Notes: generated by a model from the letters alone, not told the origin. Shown: positions 11,731 to 58,407, counted from the first letter of the stretch. The stretch: DNA of 64,000 bases from a virus (IMGVR_UViG_3300012920_000022:32001-96000), one strand, 5' to 3'. Numbers and translations: made by a program.

Positions 11731-12429
11731 ATGACCATTAACAAGGATGATTTGGAAAGTGAGGTATTAGATTTAATAGTTTCCAATAACCCAGATAATA
11801 TTGATAAGGCTTTTCATATTTTACAAAATAATAAAGAATTAATAAACGAAGTTTTATTACCTTTATTACCCAATTACCCATACTATTGTGCGAAATATTG
11901 TATATGTAATGATTTAGTATATTCATTAACACTTCTCGATGATAGTTTTCCAGATTATTTGTTTAATTTACATAACCTTATTAGTATATCAATATATGAA
12001 AGAGGCACAATTAACACATCACTTGACTTTGTGAATAAGTTTCCTAAATTAGAATTTTTGGGTTTAAAGAATTTTGTATTTAGTAAATTTCCCAGATGCC
12101 TGTTTGATCATCCAAATCTTAAAGCCATAGATTTTTCTAATACCAATATATCTGAATTTAATTTTAGATTATCTAAAATTAATACCAATATTGTGTATAT
12201 TAATTTAGATAATACCAATTTAACAGAATTACCAAAATTTTTGTTTGATATTATCCATCTTAGTGAGTTGGATATACACAATAATCCTAATGTAAAATTA
12301 GATGGATTTGATAAATTACATGGATTGGTATCTCTGGGTGTTATTAATTGTGGAATAAATGATATACCTGCGTATATTAATTTACCACCTAGTTTTAAAA
12401 AGCTAAAATTAGGTAATAATTGTTATTAA
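11731..12429 (+). CDS. LRR protein (divergent family member 1)
   Basis: Cap DLIVSNNPDNIDKAF...YPYYCAKY followed by LxxLxLxxN repeats. Confidence 0.85.
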   Translation: MTINKDDLESEVLDLIVSNNPDNIDKAFHILQNNKELINEVLLPLLPNYPYYCAKYCICNDLVYSLTLLDDSFPDYLFNLHNLISISIYERGTINTSLDFVNKFPKLEFLGLKNFVFSKFPRCLFDHPNLKAIDFSNTNISEFNFRLSKINTNIVYINLDNTNLTELPKFLFDIIHLSELDIHNNPNVKLDGFDKLHGLVSLGVINCGINDIPAYINLPPSFKKLKLGNNCY

Positions 12430-12430
12430 C

Positions 12431-13237
12431 ATGAATAGATTTTCTGGTCATAAAAATAAACTATGTAGTTCTTATTCATTGAATAGATATTATAAACTAT
12501 ACCCCATATCTGATCCTGTAACTGATTTGGGGATACCAAAAGTTTCATTCTCATCATTAAAATACTGGCTAACTACGTTTGGTCTGGTTAATAGTGATTA
12601 TTCTCCCAATTTTTTATATGATAAATTGATGGAAAAAGATCCTGAATTTTTAAATTGTGATACTTATGCATTGATTCATCATAATATGATTGTTAATTCC
12701 AGATCAATATTATACTATGAGATGTTTTCTGAGTTTATACCAACTAAGATAGATCATTTTACCACCAATCATCTACTTAGGTTTATTATCAACAAATATG
12801 GTAACGATAGCAATTATAATACTATTGCTAATGATATTAATATGGCATTAAAATTATACATTGATAACTCATCCCCATTTGATGATAAATTTACCATGAG
12901 TCAACTTAGATTATTAATAATTGATTACATTGATGAAGATAAGATTAATTATTTCAAGATGAACCCATATGTTAATTTATCTTTGAATATTATGCTATAT
13001 GCTATTATATGTCTTTGGGGTGGTAAAAGTATCATATCATTAAAGGAATATTTTAAATCACCATATTCTCCACACATAATATATGGGTTAAATATAGACA
13101 AATCTATGTCTCTATTAACCGAATTATCTAATAAATATAATGGTATAATTATAATTAACCCCCATGATAGGACTATCACCATAAATACTAGTCTGACTTG
13201 TAAAGATATGTTAATTAAATATTTGTGGGATAATTAG
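12431..13237 (+). CDS. DUF4007 (SspB-like) domain protein, degenerate
   Basis: N-terminal FSGH, DLGIPK..SLKYWL..FGL and DPEF..DTYALIHH match the remembered DUF4007 pattern FSGHETF / LGVGKNMV.SIRYWL / DPYLE..TLWLLH. Confidence 0.65.
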   Translation: MNRFSGHKNKLCSSYSLNRYYKLYPISDPVTDLGIPKVSFSSLKYWLTTFGLVNSDYSPNFLYDKLMEKDPEFLNCDTYALIHHNMIVNSRSILYYEMFSEFIPTKIDHFTTNHLLRFIINKYGNDSNYNTIANDINMALKLYIDNSSPFDDKFTMSQLRLLIIDYIDEDKINYFKMNPYVNLSLNIMLYAIICLWGGKSIISLKEYFKSPYSPHIIYGLNIDKSMSLLTELSNKYNGIIIINPHDRTITINTSLTCKDMLIKYLWDN

Positions 13238-13983
13238 AATATAAAATCTCCATCTTGAGACATAAAAGGAGTATTACTGTTCTCTTCCATTTTCTTCTCC
13301 ACTTTGTCTATTTTTTTCTCCCCGCTATCTTTGATAACATTCCAATCTATTTCATATCCCCCAGGTAATTTTTGCTTGACTAATGCGTTTTGCTTATACA
13401 TGTCGATTTCACCAGTACCAATTACATATCGTTGGAAATCATAATTATCAAACAAAGACTCTTCATCTATATCTATATAACAAGTTGCCACTAAATCAAC
13501 TTGAAAATTTCTACCTTGTATTGTTAAATTTTTGGTATATGAATTATAATCAAATGCTACTGTTTTTATTATTGCAGAATCTAAAAAATCTTGGTATGAA
13601 TCTATTGCTATTGTATATACCAGATCTTCTGGTGATGTTCTGGTACCAATATATCTACCTGTATTACCTTTTCTGTAGTCCAAATCCTTGCTACTACTAA
13701 AGATTCCTCTACCACCAACTTCTGATAATCCGTATACATTCCTGGTGCACTTTGGCATTTTTATGTTTCTTCTGTTATTATTCTTGAAATCTTTGGTATT
13801 CATTGCTTTTGTGGGTATGATCATATATACAGATTCATTGGCTACTTCTGTCCAATTATCCCTAAACATTTCAAGAGTATCATCTATTATGTTATCTATG
13901 GCTTTACTGGTTAGATTTACTGGTATACCACATCCCTGGCTTATCCTTGATTTTATGAAACTTACGAAACTCAATCTATCCAT
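13234..13983 (-). CDS. neck/head-completion protein (T4 gp13-like)
   Basis: IPVNLTSKAIDNIIDDTLEMF, FDYNSYTKNLTI, YVIG, LPGGYEIDW...GEKKI pattern; late box upstream. Confidence 0.65.
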   Translation of the reverse strand: MDRLSFVSFIKSRISQGCGIPVNLTSKAIDNIIDDTLEMFRDNWTEVANESVYMIIPTKAMNTKDFKNNNRRNIKMPKCTRNVYGLSEVGGRGIFSSSKDLDYRKGNTGRYIGTRTSPEDLVYTIAIDSYQDFLDSAIIKTVAFDYNSYTKNLTIQGRNFQVDLVATCYIDIDEESLFDNYDFQRYVIGTGEIDMYKQNALVKQKLPGGYEIDWNVIKDSGEKKIDKVEKKMEENSNTPFMSQDGDFIF

Positions 13984-13986
13984 TAT

Positions 13987-14042
13987 TAACTCTCCTTTTT
14001 TGTTATTTATTTTGTGGGATAAATAACAAAAAAGGAGAGTTA
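13987..14042. repeat. 24-bp perfect inverted repeat forming mirror leaders of divergent genes
   Basis: taactctccttttttgttatttat-tttgtggg-ataaataacaaaaaaggagagtta. Confidence 0.9.
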
Positions 14043-14043
14043 C

Positions 14044-15443: not shown

Positions 15444-15447
15444 AATC

Positions 15448-15505
15448 ATATGACAATATGTCATATTGGATGAATTGGCACGATTTTTGTAATATTTTAT
15501 GTAAA
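15448..15505 (+). promoter_or_regulatory. composite promoter copy 1: TGACA-N3-TGTCA plus sigma54-like -24/-12 box
   Basis: ATATGACA-ATA-TGTCATAT then TGGCACGATTTTTGTAATATTTTATGTAAA (GG-N10-GT). Confidence 0.8.
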
Positions 15506-15516
15506 AGATTCTTATT

Positions 15517-15768
15517 ATGATCAAAATCACTTATTTGTCATACACATATGCCACCATAATGAAAAATGGTGATGATACTGTTATCACTGTTGACCGTAAA
15601 TTGATATCGGCAAATGATTGGCATATCATTAGATTTGCTTTGGGTGCATTATCGGATACCAGAAAGGTGTTGGATAATCTCATGATTGAGTATACAATAA
15701 AGTCATATAATAGTGACATAGAATATATTGGAAAAGTTGTTAAAAAATTATTTTATTGGGTCAAATGA
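15517..15768 (+). CDS. hypothetical protein
   Basis: First ORF after promoter copy 1. Confidence 0.65.
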   Translation: MIKITYLSYTYATIMKNGDDTVITVDRKLISANDWHIIRFALGALSDTRKVLDNLMIEYTIKSYNSDIEYIGKVVKKLFYWVK

Positions 15769-17020: not shown

Positions 17021-17028
17021 GATAATAC

Positions 17029-31260: not shown

Positions 31261-31318
31261 TATATGACAATCTGTCATATAATATCCATTGGTACGATTT
31301 TTGTAATATTTTATGTAA
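31261..31318 (+). promoter_or_regulatory. composite promoter copy 2
   Basis: TATATGACA-ATC-TGTCATATA then TGGTACGATTTTTGTAATATTTTATGTAA. Confidence 0.8.
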
Positions 31319-31333
31319 AAAACCATTATCGTA

Positions 31334-32125
31334 ATGAATAACATTATAAAGTTGCTACGCAGTGGCATAGATTGTAATATAAAATTGGCATTTACTTTTG
31401 CATCATCATTGAAGTATAATACTGATGTATCTGTGGAATTAAGAAAATTTCCATTATATTGTTTGGAATATGGTGTGGAAATGGGTTACATGATGGAGTT
31501 AAAAAGTTTATGGTTAGATGAATTAAGTTTAACTGAGTTACCAGAATCAATTGGTAATCTGAAAAAATTAACTAGATTGCATGTTAGTTATAACCACTTA
31601 ACTAAATTACCAGAATCAGTTGGTAATTTGAAAAATTTGGAATGGCTATATGTTAATAATAACCACTTAACTAAATTACCAGAATCAGTTGGTAATTTAG
31701 AATCGCTAACTAGATTGTATATTAATGGTAACCACTTAACTAAATTGCCAGAATCAGTTGGTAATTTGAAAAATTTGGAATGGCTATATGTTGGTTATAA
31801 TGATTTAAACGAATTACCAGAATCAATAGGCAATTTAAAAAATTTGGAATTATTATATGTTAGTCATAACCGATTAACTAAATTGCCAGAATCAGTTGGT
31901 AATTTGAAAAAACTAGTTGAATTGTATGTTAGTCATAACCGATTAACTAAATTGCCAGAATCAGTTGGTAATTTGAAAAAACTAGTTGAATTGTATGTCA
32001 ATGATAACCGATTAACTAAATTGCCAGAATCAGTTGGTAATTTGGAATCATTAATTGAATTATGTTTTAGCTATAACAATATAAATGATTTACCTGATTC
32101 GATAATCAAATTGGTTAGTAGTTAA
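31334..32125 (+). CDS. LRR protein (family member 2)
   Basis: Cap NIKLAF..LRKFPLYCLEYGVEM; 23-aa LTKLPESVGNLKNL repeats; near-identical 69-nt DNA units. Confidence 0.95.
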   Translation: MNNIIKLLRSGIDCNIKLAFTFASSLKYNTDVSVELRKFPLYCLEYGVEMGYMMELKSLWLDELSLTELPESIGNLKKLTRLHVSYNHLTKLPESVGNLKNLEWLYVNNNHLTKLPESVGNLESLTRLYINGNHLTKLPESVGNLKNLEWLYVGYNDLNELPESIGNLKNLELLYVSHNRLTKLPESVGNLKKLVELYVSHNRLTKLPESVGNLKKLVELYVNDNRLTKLPESVGNLESLIELCFSYNNINDLPDSIIKLVSS

Positions 32126-34254: not shown

Positions 34255-34935
34255 CTATTGGTGATAGCCACATTCGTGTTTTATTGTAGAATTTCCTATT
34301 AACATTTTAGGAAAATCCACCGGATTACATGTAACATCTAGTCTTCTGAGTTTTTCTAATTTTATTATAAATTTTGGTAATTCTATAATAAAATTACCAC
34401 TAGCATCTAATTCACATAAATTTTCTAGTTTACCCATTGATTCTGGTAATTCTGTAATAAAATTATCGTTGACATTTAATCCATGGAGATTAGTTAGATC
34501 ACCTATTGATTCTGGTAATATGGTAATATGGTTTTGTGAAACATATAACCATTCCAGATTTTTCAAATTACCAATTGATTCTGGTAATTTATTGATCTTA
34601 TTATCATATAAATTTAATATCTGTAAATTCTTTAGATCGCCAATTGATTCAGGTAATTCAGTTATAGTATTTCCACACACCCTGAAATATTTTAGATTAA
34701 TTAGATCACCTATTGATTCAGGTAAATATGTAATCGTGTTATTCTCTATGAAAATAGATTCAAGATTAATTATGTGATCCATTTCTACACCATATTCCAA
34801 ACAATACATTGGATATTTTCTAAGACTTTTAGCAATAAGACTATCATATGATATTGAGGTAGCCAAAGTAAATGCTAATTTAATGTTAGTTTCATTACCA
34901 CTATTCAATAATCTCAATATATTATCATTTTCCAT
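34255..34935 (-). CDS. LRR protein (family member 3)
   Basis: Cap NIKLAF..LRKYPMYCLEYGVEM; LPESIGDL repeats. Confidence 0.95.
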   Translation of the reverse strand: MENDNILRLLNSGNETNIKLAFTLATSISYDSLIAKSLRKYPMYCLEYGVEMDHIINLESIFIENNTITYLPESIGDLINLKYFRVCGNTITELPESIGDLKNLQILNLYDNKINKLPESIGNLKNLEWLYVSQNHITILPESIGDLTNLHGLNVNDNFITELPESMGKLENLCELDASGNFIIELPKFIIKLEKLRRLDVTCNPVDFPKMLIGNSTIKHECGYHQ

Positions 34936-34946
34936 GTTTAATGAAT

Positions 34947-36059
34947 TTATCTTGGGGAATTGTTTTTCATATCTAATATATCCAAATTTGGTAATTTATT
35001 AATTGATTCTGGTAATTTAGATAACCGATTTCCATTGAGATATAATCGTTCTAATTTAACCATATTGCCCATCATATCCGGTAGTTTTTCCAATAAATTA
35101 TAACTTAATCTAAATTCTTCCAATTTAATCATGTTATCTATAGAGTTTGGCAGTTTTTCTAACGAATTATTGGTAAAATCTAATGTTTTTAAATTTGTTA
35201 GATTACCAATTGAATCTGGTAATGATATTAACGAATTACACGAAACCCCCAATATTTGTAATCTTTTCAATTTACAAATAGATTTGGGTAATTTAATTAA
35301 TTCGTTATTACCTAGAAATAAATTAATTAAATTACCCAAATCACCTATTGAATCTGGTAATTTACTAATTATGTTATTGTATAATCCCAACCAATATAAA
35401 CTTTTCAATTTGCCAATATATATGGGGATACTTGTCAAATAATTATAATTCAAATTTAATTTTTTTAAATTTGATAATCCACATATTGGTTCTGGGAATT
35501 TACTAATTTCATTTGATTCTAGGTTTAATGTCTTTAACTTCTTTAATTTCTTCAATGATTCCGGTATTTCTGATATGCAATTATCATTGGCAATTATATG
35601 GTTTATGTCATTGAGTTCACATATTGATTCTGGAAATTCCGTGAATTTATTACATCCGATATTTAGTTTTGCTAATTTTGCTAGTTTCTTCAATGATTCT
35701 GGTATTTCTGATATGGAATTATCATTTATGATTAGTATTTTTAGATTACTGAGTTTACATATTGATTCTGGAAATTCCGTGAATTTATTATAACTTATAT
35801 CTAATTTCGTTAAATTCTGTAATTTCTCTATGGATTTTGGTAGTATGATGAGTTTATTTTTTGATAATACCAGACTTTTTAAATTCATCATATAATCCAT
35901 TTCCACATCATATTCCAAACAATATAGTGGAAATTCTCTTAGTTTTTGGGCAACATCATTACCATATGGTAATGATGTTGCCATGATGAATGCTAATTTG
36001 ACATTAGCGATATCATCAGTGTCTAATAATTGTAAAATGTTGTTTATCATTTTTATCAT
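34947..36059 (-). CDS. LRR protein (family member 4)
   Basis: Cap NVKLAF..LREFPLYCLEYDVEM; about 13 repeats with a duplicated two-repeat block. Confidence 0.95.
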   Translation of the reverse strand: MIKMINNILQLLDTDDIANVKLAFIMATSLPYGNDVAQKLREFPLYCLEYDVEMDYMMNLKSLVLSKNKLIILPKSIEKLQNLTKLDISYNKFTEFPESICKLSNLKILIINDNSISEIPESLKKLAKLAKLNIGCNKFTEFPESICELNDINHIIANDNCISEIPESLKKLKKLKTLNLESNEISKFPEPICGLSNLKKLNLNYNYLTSIPIYIGKLKSLYWLGLYNNIISKLPDSIGDLGNLINLFLGNNELIKLPKSICKLKRLQILGVSCNSLISLPDSIGNLTNLKTLDFTNNSLEKLPNSIDNMIKLEEFRLSYNLLEKLPDMMGNMVKLERLYLNGNRLSKLPESINKLPNLDILDMKNNSPR

Positions 36060-39341: not shown

Positions 39342-39582
39342 TATTAAAATCATATCAAACTATTTTAGCTATTTACATAGTATTGGATTTATATTGGGTG
39401 AATTGATTGATGTGATAGAATACAATAAAGATATATATAATTTAGTAATAAAAGAATATAATGATAATAAAAACCATACTGACACAGTAACTTATAGATT
39501 TACTGTGTATTGGGATAAGGGAATTGTGGAGACAATATCAAAGTATGGCAGATGTATAGAATCATTATATACATATATATGA
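39313..39582 (+). CDS. hypothetical protein
   Basis: 89 aa; its TGA stop lies inside the palindrome of promoter copy 4. Confidence 0.55.
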   Translation: MSIQTPKTDSIKIISNYFSYLHSIGFILGELIDVIEYNKDIYNLVIKEYNDNKNHTDTVTYRFTVYWDKGIVETISKYGRCIESLYTYI

Positions 39583-39633
39583 CAGATTGTCATATAATAT
39601 CCATTGGTACGATTTTTGTAATATTTTATGTAA
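39576..39633 (+). promoter_or_regulatory. composite promoter copy 4
   Basis: TATATGACA-GAT-TGTCATATA then TGGTACGATTTTTGTAATATTTTATGTAA; identical to copy 2 except for an inverted 3-nt spacer. Confidence 0.8.
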
Positions 39634-39642
39634 AAATAGATT

Positions 39643-40500
39643 ATGTCTAATATAGAGAAGTTATTAATTAGTGGTGATGATAGAAATATAAGACTTGCAT
39701 TTATGTTGATAAAATCTACTAATCCCAAATATGACGATAAAATTAGTAGCATGCTGGTGAAATATCCAATATATTGTTTAGAATATGGTGTTGAATTATA
39801 TTATTTTAAATCCATTAATGAACTCACCATAGAAAACTGGTTTTTTGGTGAATTACCAGATTCTTTATTTAATCTAACTAATCTAACTAGTTTGAACATA
39901 TTTAATACTCATATAACCAAAATTCCCGATAATATCGGGAATTTAACCAATTTATGCACATTAAATATAAAATATAACAAGAGATTGACCAAATTACCAG
40001 AATCTATTGGTAATTTGGTCAATCTCACAGATTTATGTTTATCTGATAATGGTATTAATAGTCTACCAGAATCTATTGGTAAACTTGGTAAATTGCACAC
40101 ATTAAATACAACAAATAATCAATTATCCCATGGACTTCCAGAAACAATTGGCAATTTGAAGAATCTTCAAATTCTTCAAATTGCCAATTGTTTCTTAACT
40201 AAATTACCGAAATCTATTATTAAATTGCACAATTTAACAAAATTATATATTAATAATAATTCTATTACTAAATTACCGGAATCAATAGGTGAATTAAAAA
40301 GCTTAACTCATATAATTTTTAATGATAATTATATTACCAAATTACCGAAATCAATGGGTGATCTGGATAATTTGATTTGTTTGGATATTTCTAATAACCA
40401 AATATCAAATAATGTTAGTAAATTAAATGAAATGAAGAATTTGCGTATTTTTAATAACAACTATAATAATAGTGAATTACATGAAATTCACTTTAAATGA
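39643..40500 (+). CDS. LRR protein (family member 5)
   Basis: Cap NIRLAF..KYPIYCLEYGVEL; LPESIG repeats. Confidence 0.95.
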   Translation: MSNIEKLLISGDDRNIRLAFMLIKSTNPKYDDKISSMLVKYPIYCLEYGVELYYFKSINELTIENWFFGELPDSLFNLTNLTSLNIFNTHITKIPDNIGNLTNLCTLNIKYNKRLTKLPESIGNLVNLTDLCLSDNGINSLPESIGKLGKLHTLNTTNNQLSHGLPETIGNLKNLQILQIANCFLTKLPKSIIKLHNLTKLYINNNSITKLPESIGELKSLTHIIFNDNYITKLPKSMGDLDNLICLDISNNQISNNVSKLNEMKNLRIFNNNYNNSELHEIHFK

Positions 40501-41125
40501 AATAAAGAAAATGGACTATAATAATTTAGATGATCATATAGATGGTTTAGTTAACATATTAGATTCTATAGAACCCAATGGATCTGTATACTTATTAACT
40601 GGTTCTAATGGATCTGGGAAATCACTCATAAGATCACAGCTACCACACTATATATCTAGAAAATTAAATGTTGATGCTGGTAGTTGTACTGCTTCAACTA
40701 GCATGGCTTTGAGAACTGGTTCTAACCCAGAAATGGGTGGTCTTAGTGGAATGATGAGGGATACTGGATGGTTGCCCACAAGTATGGAAACTTTTGATAA
40801 TATAATTGGTTTATTGAAAGTTAAAGATAGATTTTTAACTATAGATGAGCCTGAAATAGGCATGGGGGAAGAAACTATTATGTCATTGTGTAGCATGCTC
40901 AATGATAAACTCAAAGAATTATCATCAGAAGAATTTAAGGGTTGTATGATAATAACACATAACAGATATCTAGTCGAAAATTTGGATTATGACTATTTTT
41001 TAAATACTGATGGTTATTCCAGCAAAAACGATTGGTTAAATAGAAAAATCATCCCTATTAACATCGATGAATTGATGGATAATAAACTATCAAAAGCAAT
41101 AAACAACAGGACAAATAAAAAATAG
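40472..41125 (+). CDS. minimal ABC-type ATPase
   Basis: Walker A GSNGSGKS, Walker B FLTIDEPE, H-loop IITHN; no TM partner. Confidence 0.8.
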   Translation: MNYMKFTLNEIKKMDYNNLDDHIDGLVNILDSIEPNGSVYLLTGSNGSGKSLIRSQLPHYISRKLNVDAGSCTASTSMALRTGSNPEMGGLSGMMRDTGWLPTSMETFDNIIGLLKVKDRFLTIDEPEIGMGEETIMSLCSMLNDKLKELSSEEFKGCMIITHNRYLVENLDYDYFLNTDGYSSKNDWLNRKIIPINIDELMDNKLSKAINNRTNKK

Positions 41126-41126
41126 G

Positions 41127-41645
41127 ATGTCAACTATAATATACGATGCTTACAAATATGATGGTAATTTACAATCACTTATGGATGAATTACCCAGAGT
41201 AAGAATTGATTTCCACAAACACATAGAATCTAATCTTAAATCTTTATTTAATGATGAGATAATGGATGCAGATAATGCATATCAATCAGTTAAAAATATG
41301 GCAAAATCTGATATGAGATGGATTCAAGAATATGAAGATACATGTATACAAGTATATGTGTGTGAAGACATAATATACATACAATTATTTGGAATGATAA
41401 AAAGCATACACATACATGATGATTTAATAAAGAAATTATATGATTTTTCCTTTGATGACAGATGTATGGATGATAGTGAAAAAGATTGGTGGAAGAGTAG
41501 AGAAAAAATCTGGGGGAAAATATTTCATAAATCACCGATACCATTATATGCTGGACTATCATATAGTATCGGTGATTCCAATATTATGTTACTTGACACA
41601 ATAAGGAAAATAAGAGGTGAAAAGCCAATATATGGATACGGATAA
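41127..41645 (+). CDS. hypothetical protein
   Basis: 172-aa ORF inside an LRR cassette. Confidence 0.7.
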   Translation: MSTIIYDAYKYDGNLQSLMDELPRVRIDFHKHIESNLKSLFNDEIMDADNAYQSVKNMAKSDMRWIQEYEDTCIQVYVCEDIIYIQLFGMIKSIHIHDDLIKKLYDFSFDDRCMDDSEKDWWKSREKIWGKIFHKSPIPLYAGLSYSIGDSNIMLLDTIRKIRGEKPIYGYG

Positions 41646-42714
41646 TAAAATATTACAATTATTAAGCAGTGATGATGATGCCAATATTAAATTAGCATTT
41701 AGCATTGTTAAACCATTACAGTATGGGGATTCTGTGGCTGTAAAGTTAAGAGAGTTTCCATATTATTGTTTGGAGCATGATCTGGAGATGGATTTTATGG
41801 TTGAATTATGTAAATTAACCATAAAACATGTAAAATTCAATAAATTACCAGAATCTATTGGTAAATTGACTAAATTGACTAAATTGACTATTGAGGATAC
41901 TGGGATATCAAAACTACCAGAATCTATTGGTAAACTAATTAATCTTAAAACGCTGTCTATTATTGGTCATACCATAACCAAACTACCAGATGCCATAGGT
42001 GATTTGACCAATTTAAGATGGTTAAATATTGAGAGAGGTACATTATCAGAACTACCAGATGCCATAGGTAATCTGGAAAATTTGGATATATTATCTATTG
42101 TTAAAAATAATTTGAATTCATTACCAGAATCTATTGGTAAACTCAATATGTTGACTATGTTGACTATTAAGTATACTGGGGTATCAAAACTACCGGAATC
42201 CATAAGCAATCTGGTAAACTTAAAGCAATTAACCATTGTGGATAGTATGTTATTAAGTTTACCAGATTGCATAGCTAAATTAGTAAACCTAGACACATTA
42301 TCTATTCCTGGTAATTTTATTACTAAATTACCAAAATCAATAGGTAATCTAAATAAACTCACCAGGGTTGATATTAGTGGAAATCAGTTAGTGGAACTAC
42401 CAGAATCAATAGGTAATTTGATAAACTTAATTTCATTGTATTTACATGACAATACCATAGCTAGATTACCAGAATCTATTGTAAAATTACGACAATTGTT
42501 GTGTTTAGATTTATCAAATAATAACTTATTTGATTTACCCAAAGAATTTACCAGTATGGTTGGTTTACAAGAATTATCTTTATTTAATAATCAACTTATG
42601 GATCTCCCACCAACCATATCAAATATGGTTGGTTTAACAACTATAAATGTACGTAGTAATAATTTTAATAAAATACCCGTATTTTATCATACTCCCATAA
42701 CTATTTTAACATGA
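41632..42714 (+). CDS. LRR protein (family member 6)
   Basis: Cap NIKLAF..LREFPYYCLEHDLEM; about 13 repeats; likely ATG start at 41632. Confidence 0.95.
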   Translation: MDTDNKILQLLSSDDDANIKLAFSIVKPLQYGDSVAVKLREFPYYCLEHDLEMDFMVELCKLTIKHVKFNKLPESIGKLTKLTKLTIEDTGISKLPESIGKLINLKTLSIIGHTITKLPDAIGDLTNLRWLNIERGTLSELPDAIGNLENLDILSIVKNNLNSLPESIGKLNMLTMLTIKYTGVSKLPESISNLVNLKQLTIVDSMLLSLPDCIAKLVNLDTLSIPGNFITKLPKSIGNLNKLTRVDISGNQLVELPESIGNLINLISLYLHDNTIARLPESIVKLRQLLCLDLSNNNLFDLPKEFTSMVGLQELSLFNNQLMDLPPTISNMVGLTTINVRSNNFNKIPVFYHTPITILT

Positions 42715-43568
42715 TGGATGATAATATATTAATATTATTAGATGGTGATGATATTAATATTAGATTAGCTTTTACCATGGTTAAATCATTGAATTATGAT
42801 GAAGTTGTTTCCGATAGATTAAGAGAATTCCCGTTATATTGTTTGGAATATGGTGTGGAAATGGATTATATGATCAATTTAAAGAGTTTAAAAATTGATC
42901 ATATGGGGATTGATAAATTACCAGATTCTATCGGGGAATTAAAAAATCTTATATCTCTGGATATAAGTCACAACCATCTCATGTACCTACCAAATAGTAT
43001 TGGGGAATTAAAAAATCTTGAACAATTATGGTTAAATAATAATTTTTTAGTTGAATTACCTGAATCGATCAAGAATCTATGTAAACTCAACATGTTGAGT
43101 TTACATGATAATGAATTTAACCATTTTCCCGAATCAATATGCAAATTACAAAATATTCAGTGGATAGATTGTGAAAATAATCTAATATATGAATTACCAG
43201 ATTCTATCGGGGAATTAAAGAATTTGAGAGAACTAAGTTTTAATCATAATTATATTAGCAAGTTGCCAGATTCTATCGGGGAATTAAAGAATCTAAGATC
43301 TTTGGATGTTGGTTTTAATAAAATGATTGAATTGCCTGATACTATAGGAGGATTATGTAAACTATTTAGATTATCTGTTTGTGATAACTATATATCTGAA
43401 TTACCAAAATCCATATCAAAACTAAAACATATTAGTTCCATAGATATAAATGATAATCCTATCGTTCACATTCCAGAATTTATATATGAATTAGAAAGCT
43501 TAAATTATTTACATCATAATGATATAACCATCAATTTAAAAACTTCCGAAACATGGAAAATAAGGTAA
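42711..43568 (+). CDS. LRR protein (family member 7)
   Basis: Cap NIRLAF..LREFPLYCLEYGVEM; LPDSIGELKNL repeats. Confidence 0.95.
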   Translation: MMDDNILILLDGDDINIRLAFTMVKSLNYDEVVSDRLREFPLYCLEYGVEMDYMINLKSLKIDHMGIDKLPDSIGELKNLISLDISHNHLMYLPNSIGELKNLEQLWLNNNFLVELPESIKNLCKLNMLSLHDNEFNHFPESICKLQNIQWIDCENNLIYELPDSIGELKNLRELSFNHNYISKLPDSIGELKNLRSLDVGFNKMIELPDTIGGLCKLFRLSVCDNYISELPKSISKLKHISSIDINDNPIVHIPEFIYELESLNYLHHNDITINLKTSETWKIR

Positions 43569-44644
43569 TTAGTTTAATAAATAGTGATGATATTACTAAT
43601 ATAGATTTAGCATTTACACTAATTAAATCTATATATGCAAATGATAGTTATAGTGAAACAATATTATCTGAAATCAAATCATATCCTACATATTGTTTAA
43701 AATATGGTATAGCATTATCTTATATTAATAGATTGGATATATCCAATCTTGATGAATTTAATCTATTAATCTATCATATATCTGAATTAACATCACTATA
43801 TTATTTAAATATATATGATATAAATTTAAATGAATTACCCTCTGAAATTGGTGATCTAATAGAATTGCGTAGGTTGGATTTGAATAATAACAACCTACGC
43901 ACATTACCTGATTCTATTGGGAATTTACATAATCTATGCTGGTTATCCATAAACTATAATAGATTAGATATTTTCCCAGATTGCATTACTAAGTTATATA
44001 ATTTAAGATCATTGTTTATAACTGGTAATGGATTGTATGAATTACCAGAATCAATAGGCAAACTGAAGAATTTATCCAGTTTACATGCTGGTAACAATTA
44101 TTTTATTTCAGGCTTACCAGAATCAATAGGAGAATTAAAGAAATTACGTAATATTAGCTTTGTGAATAGTAGGCTTAACACATTACCTGATTCCATAGGT
44201 GAATTGGAAAACTTACAGACTGCTAATTTATTCTATAATCTTATCCCTAGAGTACCAGAATCAATAGGAGAATTAAAGAAATTACAAGAACTGAATCTTA
44301 ACAATAATGAAATTAGTGAATTACCAGAATCAATAGGTAAATTGATAAATCTAGAATTATTATATCTTAATTCAAATGAGCTACAAGATATACCATCATG
44401 TGTTATTGAATTAAAAAATTTAAAAGAATTACACATTGATAATAATTATTTGTATGTAATTCCTGAATCAATGGGTGAATTAACTAATTTACAAGAGTTA
44501 AGTTTGGCTAAAAACGAGCTACAGGATCTCCCATCATCAATCAATCAACTAATGAAATTAAGAGAATTGAATATATCTGAAAATTATATTGATGATTTAC
44601 CGTGGTATCTATATGACATGAATGATCTTATAGTTATTAGATGA
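43553..44644 (+). CDS. LRR protein (family member 8)
   Basis: Cap NIDLAF..SYPTYCLKYGI; LPESIG repeats. Confidence 0.95.
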   Translation: MENKVISLINSDDITNIDLAFTLIKSIYANDSYSETILSEIKSYPTYCLKYGIALSYINRLDISNLDEFNLLIYHISELTSLYYLNIYDINLNELPSEIGDLIELRRLDLNNNNLRTLPDSIGNLHNLCWLSINYNRLDIFPDCITKLYNLRSLFITGNGLYELPESIGKLKNLSSLHAGNNYFISGLPESIGELKKLRNISFVNSRLNTLPDSIGELENLQTANLFYNLIPRVPESIGELKKLQELNLNNNEISELPESIGKLINLELLYLNSNELQDIPSCVIELKNLKELHIDNNYLYVIPESMGELTNLQELSLAKNELQDLPSSINQLMKLRELNISENYIDDLPWYLYDMNDLIVIR

Positions 44645-44675
44645 CATATAAGATTAATAAATAACACAAATAACT

Positions 44676-49337: not shown

Positions 49338-49488
49338 TTTTAAAGGAATCTATATAAGATATTGATATATAATATTGCAATAAAAATATCCAGTTTACTT
49401 AATTGGAAAAGATTTTTAATGGGTATGTTGAATAATGGAATAAAATTAATATTTTTCCATAAATGATAATATGTACTATATATAGATT

Positions 49489-54494: not shown

Positions 54495-54510
54495 TTTATA
54501 TTTATTTATT

Positions 54511-54566
54511 ACTGACATACTGTCAGTTTGTGTAATTTGGCACGATTTTTGTAATATTTTATGTAA
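54511..54566 (+). promoter_or_regulatory. composite promoter copy 5
   Basis: ACTGACA-TAC-TGTCAGT then TGGCACGATTTTTGTAATATTTTATGTAA. Confidence 0.8.
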
Positions 54567-54596
54567 AGATTTTTTAACTTATAAATTATTAATATC

Positions 54597-55211
54597 ATGA
54601 AATCATTGAAACGTATAGATCCATTGAATTTAGTTCACGTATTAGATGTAATTGATGTAAATCCAGAAGAAATAAAGCATGAGATATCTAATGCTCATGT
54701 CATTTATCATGGTAATTTCATGAAACAACTACATGGATATGATTGTAAATCTTTGGTTGCTGTAAATGATGAGGGTGAATTTTACATAGTATTAGATAAT
54801 GACGGTTATCAAACCATTAAAATGTCTGATAAACAAATTGAGTTACTAAGACAGGAAATAAAAAGACCATTTAGCTCCAGCGATTATAATATACATATTG
54901 TATTGTGGAATGAGATTGATTATTCCAGCGTGGGTGATATATCATCCTTCTATGATGAATGTGATGAACCAGCAAAAGAATGGTTGAAATGGGCAAATGC
55001 CAATTATTATTGTGAAAAATGTATAGCTGGTGAAACAACCATATTCATAGAATATCACAGAAGCAAACGACCTACCGAAGAAAATGATTGGAGTGAGGGT
55101 AAGGTGAGAATGAAGGTAACCAATCTTGATAATGGTAATTTTGCCATTGGTAAAATAAATGATGAATCAACTGATATAGTTAAAATCATATCAGAAGCAA
55201 TCAATAGCTAA
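54597..55211 (+). CDS. hypothetical protein, paralogue family B
   Basis: IDPLNL, IYHGNFM, KVTNLDNG shared with 61212, 61996 and 62748. Confidence 0.8.
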   Translation: MKSLKRIDPLNLVHVLDVIDVNPEEIKHEISNAHVIYHGNFMKQLHGYDCKSLVAVNDEGEFYIVLDNDGYQTIKMSDKQIELLRQEIKRPFSSSDYNIHIVLWNEIDYSSVGDISSFYDECDEPAKEWLKWANANYYCEKCIAGETTIFIEYHRSKRPTEENDWSEGKVRMKVTNLDNGNFAIGKINDESTDIVKIISEAINS

Positions 55212-55237
55212 TTATTTTAAAAATATCAGTTAATCTA

Positions 55238-55269
55238 TAGAGATTGCATCTATTATGGTGTAATCTCTA
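55238..55269 (+). terminator. RNA hairpin (terminator or processing/stability element)
   Basis: tagagattgcatc-tattat-ggtgtaatctcta; the two mismatches are G-U pairs on the plus strand. Confidence 0.5.
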
Positions 55270-55292
55270 CATATATATTAAATATTACATAT

Positions 55293-55973
55293 ATGAAAAA
55301 CGAAGAAATATTGAAAATATTGAAACATATAAATGATCCAATTTCCCTCGATAGTCTTTTTGCGACTATTAAAAAAGATCGCATTAAATATAATGGTGAA
55401 GTTGCTAAAATTATTAAGGAAAAATTTATATTTTACTGTATAAAATATAAATTAGAAATTAAACACTTGAAAAAGATTACTGAACTGAATCTATCAGATA
55501 CTATTGGTGATCATTTTGAATTACCACCATCAATAGATGTTATGGTTAATTTAAAGAAGTTGGTTATAAATAATACCAGGATAGTGAGTTTACCAGAATC
55601 GATGTGTAAATTGAAAAAATTAGAAAGATTATCTTTAAACCGCAACCAAATTATAAATTTACCAAATTCCATTGGTAAATTGAAAAATCTGGAGAGACTA
55701 TCATTAAATGACAACCAAATTATAAGTTTACCAAATTCCATTGGTAAACTAAAAAAATTAAAGTACTTGTCTTTGCGTAATAATAGATTATCAAAATTGC
55801 CATCCACTATCAATAAATTAACTAATTTAATGGTAATGTATCTAGATAATAATGAATTGGAAGAATTGCCATTTGAGGACATTGGACTTACAGAACTAAC
55901 ACTTAATGGTAATATCATCGACACCAGCAGAGAAATTAAATGGATCTATGGTTGGGAAAAACCATGGATATGA
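55293..55973 (+). CDS. LRR protein (family member 9, cap subtype 2)
   Basis: INDPISLDSLFATIK..FYCIKYKLE cap; LPNSIGKLK repeats. Confidence 0.95.
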   Translation: MKNEEILKILKHINDPISLDSLFATIKKDRIKYNGEVAKIIKEKFIFYCIKYKLEIKHLKKITELNLSDTIGDHFELPPSIDVMVNLKKLVINNTRIVSLPESMCKLKKLERLSLNRNQIINLPNSIGKLKNLERLSLNDNQIISLPNSIGKLKKLKYLSLRNNRLSKLPSTINKLTNLMVMYLDNNELEELPFEDIGLTELTLNGNIIDTSREIKWIYGWEKPWI

Positions 55974-56024
55974 TCTGTTTTAATTTCTAGTAACCCAATT
56001 ATATACCAATAAATTTATGATATT

Positions 56025-56682
56025 ATGACAAGTAAAGAAATAGTAGATATACTAACTACCATAAATGATCCCATTATTATTGATAGTCTTTTTGCGACTA
56101 TTAAATATAAAAATATTAAATATAATGGTAAGGTCAGAAATATGATTAGAAAACATTTCATATACTATTGTATTAAATATGAACTAGAGGTTAAATATCT
56201 GAGAAAAATTACTATTTTAAACCTATCAGGTAGTATAGGTTTACATCATGAATTGCCTTCACCCATAGATGTTATGGTTAATCTAGAAAAGTTAGTTATA
56301 CAAAATACAAAGATGGTTACCTTACCAGAATCAATTGGTAATCTTAAAAGATTAAAATCACTATGTCTAAATAATAATAGGCTGGTTACCTTACCAGAAT
56401 CAATTGGTAATCTTAAAAGACTGAACTTTTTATATTTGAATAATAATCAACTTACAGAATTACCAAATACGATTGGTAAGCTAAAAATATATGAGCTATA
56501 TTTGAATAATAATCAACTTACAGAATTGCCAAATACCATCAGTAATTTAACCAATTTTAAATGTATTACATTTGAACAACAATCAGCTCATAGATTTACC
56601 ATCAACTGATAATATGGAGTGGTTGGTTGAATTACTGCTAGATAATAATATAATGGATAATAGTAGACAATTTAAATTATGA
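56025..56682 (+). pseudogene. LRR protein (member 10) with a +1 frameshift near the 3' end
   Basis: ORF ends at 56609, but removing one T from TTTT (56555-56558) restores NLNVLHLNNNQLIDLP...DNSRQFKL* at 56682, collinear with paralogue 55293. Confidence 0.75.
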
Positions 56683-56733
56683 TGACTATTTTCTAGTATT
56701 ATCCGATAGAATAATACTAAACATTTTTGATAC

Positions 56734-57291
56734 ATGACTGAAAAATTACATGATCTATTAGTTGCTGATGATATTAAATATGTACATTTAGCATTTGTCA
56801 TGATTAAAGGAAATCCACATCTTATAACAAAAGATATTATACCATATTTGAAAATATATCCATGGATGTGTCTAGAATATGGTATATTGATGGAGGACTA
56901 TAAAAAGGAATCTTCTATATATTTAACTAATTCAAATAATAGTTGTTTACCCGATAGATTATTTGATCTTACAAACATAACTGAACTATATTTATATCAT
57001 AATCAGATTAGTGAATTACCAAAATCATTGTTGAAATTACATAAATTACATAAATTATCATTGAGTGGTAATTTAATATATGATCTACCAAATTGGATAA
57101 TCGATCTAAAATATCTTAAAGTATTAGATATATCCAATAATCCTCTCCCAGATATTCCACAAGTTTTATTTAATAACCATAATTTAACAGAAATTATTTT
57201 ACCTAAAGGTTTGAGATACAGTTTCCATGTACATGTTATTGACAAACCATCAATTAGAACAAAATTAGAACAAATTTTTAAATTTACTTAA
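56734..57291 (+). CDS. LRR protein (family member 11, short subtype)
   Basis: VHLAF..YPWMCLEYGI cap, about 4 repeats, 185 aa. Confidence 0.92.
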   Translation: MTEKLHDLLVADDIKYVHLAFVMIKGNPHLITKDIIPYLKIYPWMCLEYGILMEDYKKESSIYLTNSNNSCLPDRLFDLTNITELYLYHNQISELPKSLLKLHKLHKLSLSGNLIYDLPNWIIDLKYLKVLDISNNPLPDIPQVLFNNHNLTEIILPKGLRYSFHVHVIDKPSIRTKLEQIFKFT

Positions 57292-57292
57292 T

Positions 57293-57850
57293 ATGAAGGA
57301 AGAACACAATATATTATCACTGATAAAATCTGGTATAGAATCAAATATTAGATTGGCTTTTACATTAATTAAAAATGTTGGTATTATTTCGGAAGATATA
57401 GTGTCATATGTGAGAAATTATCCATGGTTGTGTTTAGAATATGACGTAGAAATTAATCATTTAATGAAACAATCCAGCCTATATTTGGTGAATACTGACA
57501 ACACATGTGTACCTGATGGTCTAAGTTCATTAGTAAATTTGAAAGAAATAAATTTGTTTGATAATAAAATAACAGAATTACCAGAATTTATAATGAAACT
57601 AATCAATCTATCAACCATTAATGTTTCAAATAATTGTCTAAATAAAATACCCGAATGGATAGTAAAACTCCCAAATTTAAGAAATTTGGACATATACTGT
57701 AATCCCTTATATGATATGCCACTATTTCTATTACATGACAATAATATAAGTAATATAACTATGTCATTTGATTGTAAATATCATTTCTATCCATATGCGC
57801 ATGATAATCCACATATAAAACATAATCTAAAGAAATTCAACTTTTTCTAA
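57293..57850 (+). CDS. LRR protein (family member 12, short subtype)
   Basis: NIRLAF..YPWLCLEYDVE cap, 185 aa. Confidence 0.92.
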   Translation: MKEEHNILSLIKSGIESNIRLAFTLIKNVGIISEDIVSYVRNYPWLCLEYDVEINHLMKQSSLYLVNTDNTCVPDGLSSLVNLKEINLFDNKITELPEFIMKLINLSTINVSNNCLNKIPEWIVKLPNLRNLDIYCNPLYDMPLFLLHDNNISNITMSFDCKYHFYPYAHDNPHIKHNLKKFNFF

Positions 57851-58407
57851 TGGAAGATTTTACTGATAAACTACTGGAATTATTAAAATCCGATGATGAA
57901 TCTAATGTAAAAACTGCTCTTAATATAATGCAAGGTGATATACCATGTGATATACAAAGATTATCACCATATTTGAATCATTATCCGGATCTTTGCTTAG
58001 ATTATAGTATAACGGATTGGATGTTAAATCGTAAAGAAATATTCATAGTAAACACCAAACTTGAAAAATTACATCAAAATATAGGTAAGTTAATAAATCT
58101 TAAAAGACTGTATTTATACAATAATAATTTATAAGAATTACCAAATGAATTATCCGAACTAGTAAATCTTGAGAGATTAGATTTACATGGTAATAAATTA
58201 ACTCATCTATCAGGATGGATTATGAATATGCCTAATTTGAAATACCTGGATATAAGTGAAAACCCATTATTAGATGTGCCAACTGCGATATTTAGGGATC
58301 ATAAACTAAAGGAAGTTATATTACCACTTAGATTAAAAATAAGTTTTGGTATCCATGCATACAGACACGGTAAATTTAAATCAAAAACGCTATATAGATT
58401 TTTGTAA
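57850..58407 (+). pseudogene. LRR protein (member 13) interrupted by an in-frame TAA
   Basis: YNNNL*ELPNELSELVNLERLDLHGN; TAA at 58132-58134; reading through gives 185 codons like both neighbours. Confidence 0.85.

What the first reader, a model, noticed from the sequence alone, without database searches (positions are those of the whole stretch)
11731..58407. Expanded, diversifying repertoire of 13 phage LRR proteins with a shared N-terminal cap
Seen: 13 LRR genes in five loci (11731; 31334; 34255 and 34947; 39643, 41632, 42711 and 43553; 55293 to 57850). Most begin with a roughly 55-aa cap, I..LL.S.D..NI.LAF...Y...V...LR.(F/Y)P.YCLEYGVEM; two carry a related subtype. About 4 to 13 repeats of 23 aa follow, with a conserved LPESIGxL backbone and highly variable xLxLxxN positions. 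There is no signal peptide or catalytic domain. Known: those variable positions form the concave ligand-binding face of LRR solenoids. Inference: a constant-adaptor plus variable-binder library, in which the cap docks on one common partner while the LRRs recognise different targets. Possible roles are anti-defence inhibitors, decoys of host LRR proteins, or ankyphage-like modulators of a eukaryote associated with the host. I know no described phage system of this form.
Basis: partly seen in the sequence, partly recalled or inferred. Interest (0 to 1): 0.9.

Follow-up and report, generated by a model that had tools for sequence, protein, structure and literature searches.

The report
Expanded LRR gene family in marine jumbo phage
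A large uncultured marine phage spends about a sixth of this stretch on thirteen related leucine-rich-repeat binder genes whose shared front end also occurs in a few gliding marine bacteria, so the family is real and unusual but its targets are still unknown.

Summary
Observation confirmed. The window (part of a 135.7-kb, about 55%-complete IMG/VR phage contig, 28% GC) holds 13 LRR genes in five loci. Twelve are intact; 57850-58407 has an in-frame TAA. All share a 55-aa N-terminal module, and at least 4 more copies lie outside the window.

- The cap has no Pfam model and is rare: 48 hits among 1.84 billion representatives.
- It is not phage-specific. It precedes LRRs in bacterial proteins, two of them named Microscilla marina. 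Two Cytophagales genomes carry 13 and 14 copies.
- It is not constant. Mean pairwise identity is 34%, about the same as the LRR units.
- It folds as two HEAT-like helical hairpins, and its last helices overlay the N-terminal cap of solved LRR proteins.
- So it reads as part of the fold, not a proven docking adaptor.

Concave positions are the most variable, but an unbiased dN/dS test gave omega of about 1 (saturated, mosaic).

New lead: in a second phage contig 7 LRR paralogues, and in this phage 1 outside the window, carry a T4-like capsid-targeting leader ending I-x-E. None of the 13 window genes does.

Best reading: a host-derived, tandemly expanded family of cytoplasmic protein binders, probably for host takeover or anti-defence. 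Function is untested. The scan had already noted this family in the neighbouring window of the same genome.

The parts
11731..12429 (+). Divergent cap-LRR gene (232 aa)
   Evidence: Cap profile hits. LRR Pfam matches are below cut-off. Two strict repeats.
31334..32125 (+). Cap-LRR gene (263 aa, 8 strict units, very recent internal unit duplications)
   Evidence: The promoter-like module at 31289-31305 lies 29 nt upstream.
34255..34935 (-). Cap-LRR gene (226 aa); the one modelled
   Evidence: AF2 pLDDT 91.0: five short helices at residues 2-55, then the LRR solenoid. Z 25.1 to Leptospira LIC12234, PDB 4tzh.
34947..36059 (-). Cap-LRR gene (370 aa, 13 units)
39643..40500 (+). Cap-LRR gene (285 aa), first gene behind the promoter-like module at 39604-39620
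40472..41645 (+). Two non-LRR genes lying inside the LRR string: a P-loop-like 217-aa gene and a 172-aa unknown
   Evidence: Only weak AAA_16 and AAA_29 matches, plus weak PADLOC mad3, HEC-01A and ATPase-Toprim matches. Nothing was found for the 172-aa protein.
41632..42714 (+). Cap-LRR gene (360 aa)
42711..43568 (+). Cap-LRR gene (285 aa); its cap was modelled alone
   Evidence: Cap-only AF2 model has pLDDT 91.4 and four helices.
43553..44644 (+). Cap-LRR gene (363 aa)
55293..55973 (+). Cap-LRR gene, subtype cap (226 aa)
   Evidence: Sister to 56025 in the tree with SH-aLRT 100.
56025..56609 (+). Cap-LRR gene, subtype cap (194 aa)
   Evidence: Not run in Pfam.
56734..57291 (+). Short cap-LRR gene (185 aa, 3 units)
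   Evidence: Missed by the bacterial-only cap profile.
57293..57850 (+). Short cap-LRR gene (185 aa, 3 units)
57850..58407 (+). Cap-LRR gene broken by an in-frame TAA at 58132
   Evidence: The 94-aa stump is on record as P0003.
31261..31320 (+). Promoter-like module: a palindrome ATATGACA-N3-TGTCATAT followed by TTGGTACG-N4-TTGTA
   Evidence: A 43-nt stretch is identical at 31273-31315 and 39588-39630. Related copies lie at 15475, 54537 and 61158.
39576..39635 (+). Second copy of the promoter-like module, heading the 39643-44644 string
54525..54568 (+). Third copy, heading 54597-55211 and then the 55293-58407 LRR string

Best explanation
The 13 genes are a tandemly expanded, old and diverged family of small cytoplasmic LRR binder proteins. 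The family is shared with a few marine Cytophagales bacteria (Microscilla type); the direction of transfer is not resolved.

Each protein is one rigid unit: two HEAT-like helical hairpins, then 3 to 13 SHOC2/Leptospira-type 23-residue LRRs. The second hairpin serves as the N-terminal cap of the solenoid. The cap is therefore part of the fold. The concave faces differ from paralogue to paralogue, so each copy most likely binds a different protein.

The inferred role is binding proteins inside the infected host cell, for host takeover or to neutralise defence or toxin proteins. Ten of the 13 lie in gene strings headed by one shared phage promoter-like module, so they are probably expressed as one class.

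Shown: the architecture, the homology, the copy number, the bacterial relatives and the shared upstream module.
Inferred: cytoplasmic location, protein binding, different targets per copy and the anti-host role.
For: - Thirteen ORFs with LRR Pfam matches; 9 of the 10 tested pass the cut-offs.
- The cap is recognised by a bacterial-only profile in 12 of 13 genes.
- The cap-only profile found 48 hits among 1.84 billion representatives: 7 from this contig, 2 from phage contig G001, 3 spurious repeat proteins and 36 others. Of the 36, 32 have a strict LRR unit after the cap. The cap is N-terminal in 33 and internal, directly before the LRRs, in 3. Two of those three are FGE-sulfatase-cap-LRR and DUF6624-cap-LRR.
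- Two hits are named Microscilla marina LRR proteins. It occurs in 5 of 201 genomes of that order and in 1 of 401 of the phylum sample, the one being G002 itself.
- AF2 gives one confident unit, pLDDT 91.0 with 91-96 per 10-residue block across residues 1-60, which include the cap-LRR junction. The best low-rmsd PDB overlays (4tzh Z 25.1 rmsd 2.0; RSU1 7lt9 Z 23.7 rmsd 2.0) begin at model residues 38-40, so the last cap helices match known LRR N-caps.
- The cap alone gives four helices. Its nearest solved folds are HEAT/ARM-type hairpins, only at Z <= 6.0. ESM Atlas neighbours are HEAT_2 clusters.
- Cap identity (mean 0.34) is no higher than LRR-unit identity (0.37-0.42).
- The promoter-like module sits directly upstream of 31334 and 39643, and of 54597, which leads the 55293 string.
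- Precedent for repeat proteins as inhibitors: Imm-LRR and Imm-HEAT immunity proteins in polymorphic toxin systems (PMC3482391, passages read).
Against: - No target, expression or localisation data exist. No RNA run was listed.
- No signal-peptide predictor was run.
- Nine LRR proteins gave no PADLOC match, so there is no link to known defence components.
- Context in six loci of unnamed Cytophagales genome G554 is heterogeneous. Only one locus has a sub-threshold toxin-like neighbour (Gln_amidase, E 4e-4).
- The tree is unresolved: 4 of 57 inner branches are well supported. Neither the direction of transfer nor the number of acquisitions is shown.
- The phage has 28% GC and the six G554 loci have 37-43% GC, so those bacteria need not be the host.
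- Conserved polar residues in the cap (S-x-D-x-x-N, E-Y-G-V-E) could still form a docking surface.
Confidence: 0.5

Rival explanations
1. The cap is a constant adaptor that docks every paralogue onto one common partner, either a phage or a host machine. The LRRs bring different targets to that partner.
For: - The cap is present in all 13 genes, with an invariant Cys and near-invariant Phe and Tyr.
- The motif P-x-Y-C-L-E-Y-G-V-E-M is shared by several copies.
- A jumbo-phage precedent exists for a constant N-terminal module in front of variable binding domains: DUF7941 proteins of phage Goslar, some of which carry LRR domains (preprint 10.64898/2026.04.21.720040, passages read).
Against: - The cap diverges as much as the LRR framework: mean identity 0.34, minimum 0.09.
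- Conserved positions are mostly hydrophobic.
- The last cap helices overlay ordinary LRR N-caps.
- The same module precedes LRRs in 13-14 paralogues in each of two unnamed Cytophagales genomes (G002, G554). The six G554 loci examined are scattered among unrelated genes and showed no phage genes.
- No partner candidate was found.
Confidence: 0.15
2. Capsid-delivered internal proteins. The LRR proteins are packed into the head and injected with the DNA, like T4 IPI*, to act before any phage gene is expressed.
For: - In phage contig G001, 7 LRR paralogues begin with M..(Y)IK.F..(F/Y)I(N/L)E in front of the cap or a cap remnant (one, 9156-9806, keeps only the start of the cap). The profile found 9 cap matches on that contig.
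- In this phage, gene 7814-8668, outside the window, begins MNQIASFSQFINE.
- The leader ends in I-x-E. That matches the L/I-X-E site of the T4 prohead protease gp21 that removes the 10-residue capsid-targeting sequence (PMC9026906 and PMC3012670, passages read).
- This contig has a Peptidase_S77 match above the cut-off. The ORF that carries it also contains S-F-I-N-E-N.
- The motif occurs in 7 of 88 G001 ORF N-termini, against 1 of 651 internal windows.
Against: - None of the 13 window genes has the leader.
- In this contig only 3 of 254 ORF N-termini match, against about 0.9 expected.
- The seven G001 leaders are paralogous copies, so they are one observation, not seven.
- The G001 fragment shows no S77 match.
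- No virion data exist.
Confidence: 0.1
3. Virion-surface adhesins or host-recognition parts. The LRRs bind cell-surface structures and the cap fixes them to fibres or to the head.
For: - The 39643-44644 string lies just upstream of a 1553-aa ORF and of a 774-aa protein with a phage tail-collar domain.
- Weak PHROG matches to tail fibre and appendage families exist for 31334.
- In phage Goslar, LRR or beta-helix domains are proposed to take part in host recognition.
Against: - The PHROG tail matches are E 4e-4 to 1e-2 and lie on LRR units only.
- The proteins are small (185-370 aa) and have no fibre or trimerisation domain.
- The bacterial relatives are chromosomal, dispersed, and lack leader peptides in the sequences seen.
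Confidence: 0.07
4. Effectors aimed at a eukaryote associated with the host (ankyphage-like), or mimics of type III LRR effectors.
For: NCBIfam lists XopAC, XopAE, XopL, SlrP and SspH2 models as the best names. The LRR type also matches eukaryotic SHOC2 and RSU1.
Against: - All NCBIfam scores are far below the cut-offs (for example 155 versus 600 bits) and cover LRR units only.
- No NEL, Fic or other effector domain is present.
- No export signal is visible.
- The runs that hold the phage are labelled marine metagenome.
Confidence: 0.03

Closest known systems
Cap-LRR proteins of Microscilla marina (WP_002694680.1, WP_002694415.1) and the 13-14 paralogues in unnamed Cytophagales genomes G002 and G554
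   Same: Same N-terminal module directly before the same type of LPxxIGxL 23-residue LRRs. No catalytic domain. Many paralogues per genome.
   Different: The bacterial copies are dispersed rather than in tandem strings. Fifteen of the 36 non-phage hits to the cap profile end in a conserved LPxC...F tail that the window genes lack. In the tree, 31 of those 36 hits form a group of their own. Their function is equally unknown.
Leptospira LRR proteins (LIC12234, PDB 4tzh; LIC11098, 4u08) and eukaryotic SHOC2 and RSU1
   Same: Same LRR class and curvature: Z 24-25, rmsd 2.0-2.4 over 172-184 residues, 28-35% identity. Their N-terminal capping helices overlay cap residues from about 38 onwards.
   Different: They have no counterpart of the first helical hairpin (cap residues 1-37). 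Those proteins belong to cells, not phages.
T4 internal proteins (IPI*, IPII, IPIII) with a capsid-targeting sequence
   Same: A diverse set of small proteins is united by a short N-terminal leader that is cut after L/I-X-E. IPI* blocks a host restriction enzyme (PMC3012670 and PMC9026906, passages read). Seven G001 LRR genes and one gene of this phage carry a leader of that form.
   Different: None of the 13 window genes has the leader. T4 internal proteins are not LRR proteins. Packaging here is untested.
Imm-LRR and Imm-HEAT immunity proteins of polymorphic toxin systems
   Same: Cytoplasmic repeat proteins that neutralise toxins by binding, and that are found in arrays of immunity genes. 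Microscilla is rich in such systems (PMC3482391, passages read).
   Different: No toxin gene lies next to the phage copies. Only 1 of 6 bacterial loci examined has a weak, sub-threshold toxin-like neighbour. Membership is not shown.
LRR genes in other phages: PHROG 6688 and 21719, Leptospira phage LE1 relatives, and huge phage LR756500.1
   Same: LRR proteins of the same class occur in phages. LR756500.1 (462 kb) has 17 matching places, and its capsid protein is related.
   Different: LR756500.1 has no convincing cap; its best match is partial at E 1.6e-3. Only 4 of 50,697 phage records matched the LRR protein used as query (42711-43568) at all.
DUF7941 proteins of chimallivirus Goslar
   Same: A constant N-terminal module followed by variable binding domains, LRR among them, in several paralogues of one jumbo phage.
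   Different: DUF7941 is a virion-fibre module found only in chimalliviruses.

Membership tests
Leucine-rich repeat superfamily (Pfam LRR_8, LRR_14, LRR_4) | Score above the Pfam gathering cut-off | tested here: met
   Nine of the 10 genes tested pass; 11731 is below the cut-off. Genes 56025, 57293 and 57850 were not run in Pfam but have 3-4 strict units each.
Leucine-rich repeat superfamily | Solenoid fold with a parallel beta-sheet on the concave face | tested here: met
   AF2 model of 34255-34935: pLDDT 91.0, with regular strand and helix units. Z 25.1 to PDB 4tzh. One gene was modelled.
Cap-LRR family shared with Microscilla (no public name) | The N-terminal module is recognised by a profile built only from bacterial members | tested here: met
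   Twelve of 13 window genes at E <= 0.01, best 3.1e-20; 56734 is missed.
HEAT repeat (Pfam HEAT, HEAT_2) | Sequence match to a HEAT model in the cap | tested here: not met
   No HEAT family was listed at E <= 0.01 for the 10 proteins.
HEAT repeat (fold) | Two antiparallel helical hairpins that superpose on solved HEAT units | tested here: inconclusive
   Best match is Z 6.0, rmsd 2.3 over 53 residues (YibA, 1oyz). No chain reached Z >= 8, which is within the noise for helical models. ESM Atlas neighbours include HEAT_2 clusters at TM 0.66-0.74.
T4-type internal proteins | N-terminal leader of about 10-15 residues ending in L/I-X-E | tested here: not met
   None of the 13 window genes has it. 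It is present in 1 copy outside the window and in 7 genes of G001.
T4-type internal proteins | A T4-type prohead protease in the same phage | tested here: met
   Peptidase_S77 at 38.9 bits, above the cut-off, at genome 116975-117301.
T4-type internal proteins | The protein is present in the mature head and is cleaved | not testable with these tools
   This needs virion proteomics.
Imm-LRR immunity proteins of polymorphic toxin systems | The gene lies next to, or downstream of, a toxin gene or inside a polyimmunity locus | tested here: inconclusive
   No toxin family was found among the window neighbours tested. One of 6 bacterial loci has a Gln_amidase match at E 4e-4, below the cut-off.
Type III LRR effectors (XopL, XopAC, SlrP/SspH/IpaH) | NCBIfam score above the cut-off and an effector domain (NEL, Fic) | tested here: not met
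   Scores are 20-155 bits against cut-offs of 450-1243, on LRR units only. No effector domain appears in Pfam.
Known anti-phage defence components (PADLOC) | Match to a PADLOC model | tested here: not met
   None of the 9 LRR proteins matched at E <= 0.001.

The most novel reading that the evidence does not exclude
Marine Bacteroidota jumbo phages keep a library of LRR binders that works like an innate-immune receptor set turned round. Each paralogue captures a different host defence or toxin protein. In some lineages the binders are fused to a T4-type capsid-targeting leader, so that they are injected with the DNA and are already in place before the first phage gene is read. That would be the first LRR-based family of injected anti-defence proteins, and it would give a ready-made scaffold for finding unknown defence proteins by pull-down.
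Probability: 0.15. Interest if true: 0.85.

Novelty: new variant of a known kind. Interest (0 to 1): 0.6.

Why it matters
Phages rarely carry LRR proteins. Only 4 of 50,697 GenBank phage records matched the LRR protein used as query (42711-43568). Here the family takes about 16% of the window, with at least 17 copies on 136 kb. That is a heavy investment, which argues for selection.

The family defines an unannotated domain, the cap, shared between a handful of Cytophagales bacteria and two phage contigs. This also gives a lead to the host.

If some members are indeed packed into the head, the family would link two known ideas: repeat-protein binder repertoires and T4-style injected anti-defence proteins. 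Each paralogue could then serve as bait for an unknown host protein.

If the proteins prove to be ordinary host-derived binders without a measurable role, the finding remains a well-documented lineage-specific expansion.

Tried and rejected
- Positive selection. A first dN/dS count that picked repeat pairs by low overall pS gave omega of 2.6-6.8 at concave codons. I rejected it because the picking biases pS downward. Pairs were then picked on core and convex codons only. That gave concave pS 0.50-0.65, pN 0.52-0.63 and omega 0.9-1.07, from 13 pairs (7 independent) at the 0.25 threshold and 96 pairs (20 independent) at 0.35. Only 3 non-independent pairs inside gene 31334 stay high: 17.0 of 43.0 non-synonymous against 1.0 of 11.0 synonymous. 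Convex codons have lower pS (0.10-0.22) than core codons (0.24-0.34). This suggests the LPESIGNL half has been homogenised, so the halves of a unit have different histories. The test is inconclusive.
- More phage relatives. A scan with protein 42711 found none. Scans with P0010 and with leader alignment A4 found only G001. The one metagenome scan, with A5, gave 3 loci of 55-56% GC that share only a chance FPLYCLEY string. A word-based search with cap residues 1-56 found nothing in the near-length class.
- The genome-contig scan with P0008 gave 53 loci, but only L002 matches the cap. The rest are generic LRR matches.
- G001 against this contig by blastp: beyond the LRR genes (and ORFs on their opposite strand), only one small ORF is shared at E <= 1e-5, so the two phages need not be close.
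- Expression: no RNA holder was listed.
- Contigs of two further marine runs carry short pieces identical to the window. This shows presence only.
- The T4 late-promoter word TATAAATA occurs 71 times in the contig and lies upstream of only 10 ORFs, not the capsid gene. It is not informative.
- No tRNA was found in the window or the contig.
- PHROG, Pfam and NCBIfam gave nothing useful for the large neighbouring ORFs or for the two genes inside the LRR string.
- Complex prediction was not used, because I had no candidate partner and make no binding claim.
- Supplementary files of the papers were not opened.

Full report
WHAT THE WINDOW IS. The window is bases 32001-96000 of a 135,755-base linear IMG/VR virus record that CheckV rates 55% complete. 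GC content is 25-33%. It is a tailed phage. The window holds a protein with a phage tail-collar domain, a PIF1 helicase, a DEAD/ResIII helicase and a DUF932 protein. The contig holds a Gp23-type capsid gene and a Peptidase_S77 (T4 prohead protease) match above the cut-off. The capsid protein is nearest to Flavobacterium phage MaF61 (36.7% identity over 99%). Next come Tenacibaculum phages PTm1/PTm5, the huge phage LR756500.1, Prevotella Lak phages, Chryseobacterium phages and Sphingomonas phage PAU. A Bacteroidota host is therefore likely. The runs that hold the sequence are labelled marine metagenome.

All 13 ORFs are at the stated places. Twelve are intact. 57850-58407 has a TAA at codon 95. 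Stop-codon use elsewhere is ordinary (25 TAA, 15 TGA, 15 TAG among 55 ORFs), so I read it as a broken gene, not a recoded one. Nine of the 10 genes run in Pfam pass the LRR cut-offs; 11731 is a weak member. A strict regex finds 78 units, mostly spaced exactly 23 residues apart. The N-termini align over 56 columns with an invariant Cys and near-invariant Phe and Tyr. As a control that does not lean on the window, a profile built only from 18 bacterial caps finds 12 of the 13 genes, plus 5 places outside the window. The contig holds at least 4 more cap-bearing genes and one cut LRR ORF. The 13 genes cover 10,116 of 64,000 bases.

IS THE CAP GENERIC? No, but it is not phage-specific either.
- Pfam, NCBIfam and PADLOC have no model for it. 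One PHROG (3525) touches it weakly.
- An exhaustive profile search of 1.84 billion representatives gave 48 hits at E <= 0.001: 7 from this contig, 2 from a second phage contig, 3 spurious repeat proteins and 36 others.
- Of the 36, 32 have a strict LRR unit after the cap; the other four are fragments of 82-133 aa. In 33 the cap is N-terminal. In 3 it is internal but still directly before the LRRs, and two of these are FGE-sulfatase-cap-LRR and DUF6624-cap-LRR.
- Two hits carry the name Microscilla marina.
- A genome whose record is titled 'Uncultured Microscilla sp.' (G002) has 13 strong cap matches and 12 partial ones. Another genome of the same order (G554) has 14.
- In samples, 5 of 201 genomes of that order and 1 of 401 of the phylum (G002 itself) have a match at E <= 1e-6.
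So a repertoire of LRR paralogues with this shared front end also exists in a few Cytophagales bacteria. In six G554 loci the genes are dispersed among unrelated genes.

WHAT THE CAP IS.
- AlphaFold2 models one gene as a single confident unit (pLDDT 91.0): five short helices at residues 2-55, then the solenoid.
- The best low-rmsd overlays on solved LRR proteins start at model residues 38-48. These are LIC12234 (Z 25.1, rmsd 2.0, 179 residues) and RSU1 (Z 23.7, rmsd 2.0, from its residue 3). The last cap helices therefore correspond to ordinary N-terminal LRR caps, and the first hairpin is extra.
- Modelled alone, the cap is a four-helix unit (pLDDT 91.4). Its nearest solved folds are HEAT/ARM hairpins, only at Z <= 6.0, with no chain at Z >= 8. 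That is within the noise for helical models. ESM Atlas neighbours point the same way.
- The cap is not constant. Mean pairwise identity is 0.34 (0.09-0.63), or 0.49 among the seven main-type genes, against 0.37-0.42 for LRR units.
These facts favour a structural role and weaken the 'constant adaptor' reading, but they cannot exclude a docking surface.

VARIABLE FACE. Entropy is highest at unit positions 2, 3, 5, 7, 8 and 10. Identity at these sites is 0.12-0.14, against 0.66-0.70 at core sites. This is the usual LRR pattern and does not by itself show selection. A dN/dS count that picked pairs by low pS gave omega > 1, but that picking is biased. With pairs picked on the other codons, concave sites have pS about equal to pN, near 0.5-0.65, so omega is about 1 and saturated. 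Only three non-independent pairs inside 31334 look elevated. Convex codons have unusually low pS, which suggests homogenisation of the LPESIGNL half. 'Diversifying' is therefore not shown.

RELATIVES IN PHAGES.
- Only 4 of 50,697 GenBank phage records match the LRR protein used as query (42711-43568): two Leptospira phages, one Listeria phage and LR756500.1.
- LR756500.1 has 17 LRR places but no real cap.
- IMG/VR holds one other carrier, G001 (46.6 kb, 21% complete), with 9 cap matches.
- G001 and this contig share the LRR genes (and ORFs on their opposite strand) plus one small ORF at blastp E <= 1e-5.
- A tree of 60 cap-plus-two-unit rows is poorly resolved, with 4 of 57 branches well supported. 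Thirty-one of the 36 non-phage rows plus one G001 row form one group (SH-aLRT 92). The phage rows fall into several long-branched groups.
- Rows left out of the tree: 9 P-entries identical to ORFs already in the set, 2 near-copies of P0015, and the 3 spurious hits.
The family in phages is old, not a recent burst.

A NEW LEAD: CAPSID-TARGETING LEADERS. Seven G001 LRR genes begin with M..(Y)IK.F..(F/Y)I(N/L)E. This precedes the cap in six of them and a truncated cap remnant in the seventh, 9156-9806. One gene of this phage, 7814-8668, outside the window, begins MNQIASFSQFINE. In T4 the first 10 residues of the internal proteins target them to the prohead, and gp21 removes them after L/I-X-E. The internal proteins are described as a diverse set of anti-defence proteins united only by that leader (PMC9026906 and PMC3012670, passages read). 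This contig has the protease, and the ORF that carries it contains S-F-I-N-E-N. The exact T4 leader sequence I know only from recall, and I do not rely on it.

Against this lead:
- None of the 13 window genes has the leader.
- The G001 leaders are copies of one another.
- In this contig the motif is not enriched at N-termini: 3 of 254, against about 0.9 expected.
- The G001 fragment shows no protease.
I treat packaging as a lead for part of the family, not for the 13.

REGULATION. A 43-nt stretch is identical upstream of 31334 and 39643. It belongs to a module made of a palindrome, TTGG(C/T)ACG-N4-TTGTA and a conserved tail. The module occurs five times in the window and twice more in the contig. 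Three copies head strings that contain 10 of the 13 LRR genes. The likeness to a sigma-54 -24/-12 element is from recall. Other first-stage notes on this genome already flag the module.

MOST LIKELY MECHANISM. These are cytoplasmic binders of the SHOC2/Leptospira LRR class, from a family shared with Cytophagales-type bacteria, multiplied in tandem and diverged on the binding face. They are probably expressed as one regulatory class to bind different proteins in the infected cell. Repeat proteins acting as stoichiometric inhibitors have precedent in Imm-LRR and Imm-HEAT immunity proteins (PMC3482391, passages read). The link is analogy only, however. One of six bacterial loci has a weak toxin-like neighbour and none of the phage loci does. 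No PADLOC model matches.

No RNA data were listed. Supplements were closed. No signal-peptide tool was available.

VERDICT. The feature is real and unusual: a new, rare LRR subfamily with its own N-terminal module, heavily expanded in an uncultured marine jumbo phage. The target and role remain open.

Noticed in passing
window 368-1615 (-): A 415-aa protein matches only the N-terminal third of adenylosuccinate synthetase (Pfam Adenylsucc_synt, E 7.6e-15). Another first-stage note reads it as a PurZ-type enzyme (2-aminoadenine genome). I did not test the motifs.
   Followed up: no
window 15475-15491, 31289-31305, 39604-39620, 54537-54553, 61158-61174; also genome 101204 (+) and 96256 (-): A conserved promoter-like module, about 60 nt long: palindrome ATATGACA-N3-TGTCATAT, then TTGG(C/T)ACG-N4-TTGTA and AATATTTTATGTAAA. 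A 17-nt core pattern gave 6 matches against 1.43 expected. It resembles a sigma-54 -24/-12 element (recalled).
   Followed up: partly
genome 116891-118627 (+), outside the window: The ORF carrying the Peptidase_S77 match is 578 aa long. Its second half is a run of repeats (..ENSEFTNKLADY..), like a protease fused to a scaffold-like region. It includes S-F-I-N-E-N, which resembles the leader end of the LRR gene at 7814-8668.
   Followed up: partly
genome 25506-26102 (+), outside the window: A 198-aa protein begins MIKTFKEFMTE, a T4 capsid-targeting-like leader. It has no PHROG match.
   Followed up: partly
genome 22325-24501 (+), outside the window: Tandem genes of about 190 aa keep only the first cap hairpin (..LLYS.....IA..I..) and have degenerate LRR-like units. 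They match the cap profiles only weakly.
   Followed up: partly
window 40472-41125 (+): A small P-loop protein sits inside the LRR string. It has weak PADLOC matches (mad3 at E 7e-6, HEC-01A, ATPase-Toprim) and a weak SufC-like tail.
   Followed up: no
L001 16869-18207 (-) in phage contig G001: By eye, the ORF translations look like a response-regulator receiver and a histidine kinase encoded side by side on a phage contig. They were not run against Pfam.
   Followed up: no
L072 (G554:C128) 3027-7822 (-): A bacterial string made of a 329-aa protein with a sub-threshold papain-fold toxin (Gln_amidase) match, a 322-aa LRR protein, then an FGE-sulfatase-cap-LRR gene that appears split into two ORFs.
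   Followed up: partly
window 39500-49400: Short contigs identical to the window are present in two further marine metagenome runs of other studies (X2, X3), so the phage is not confined to one sample.
   Followed up: partly
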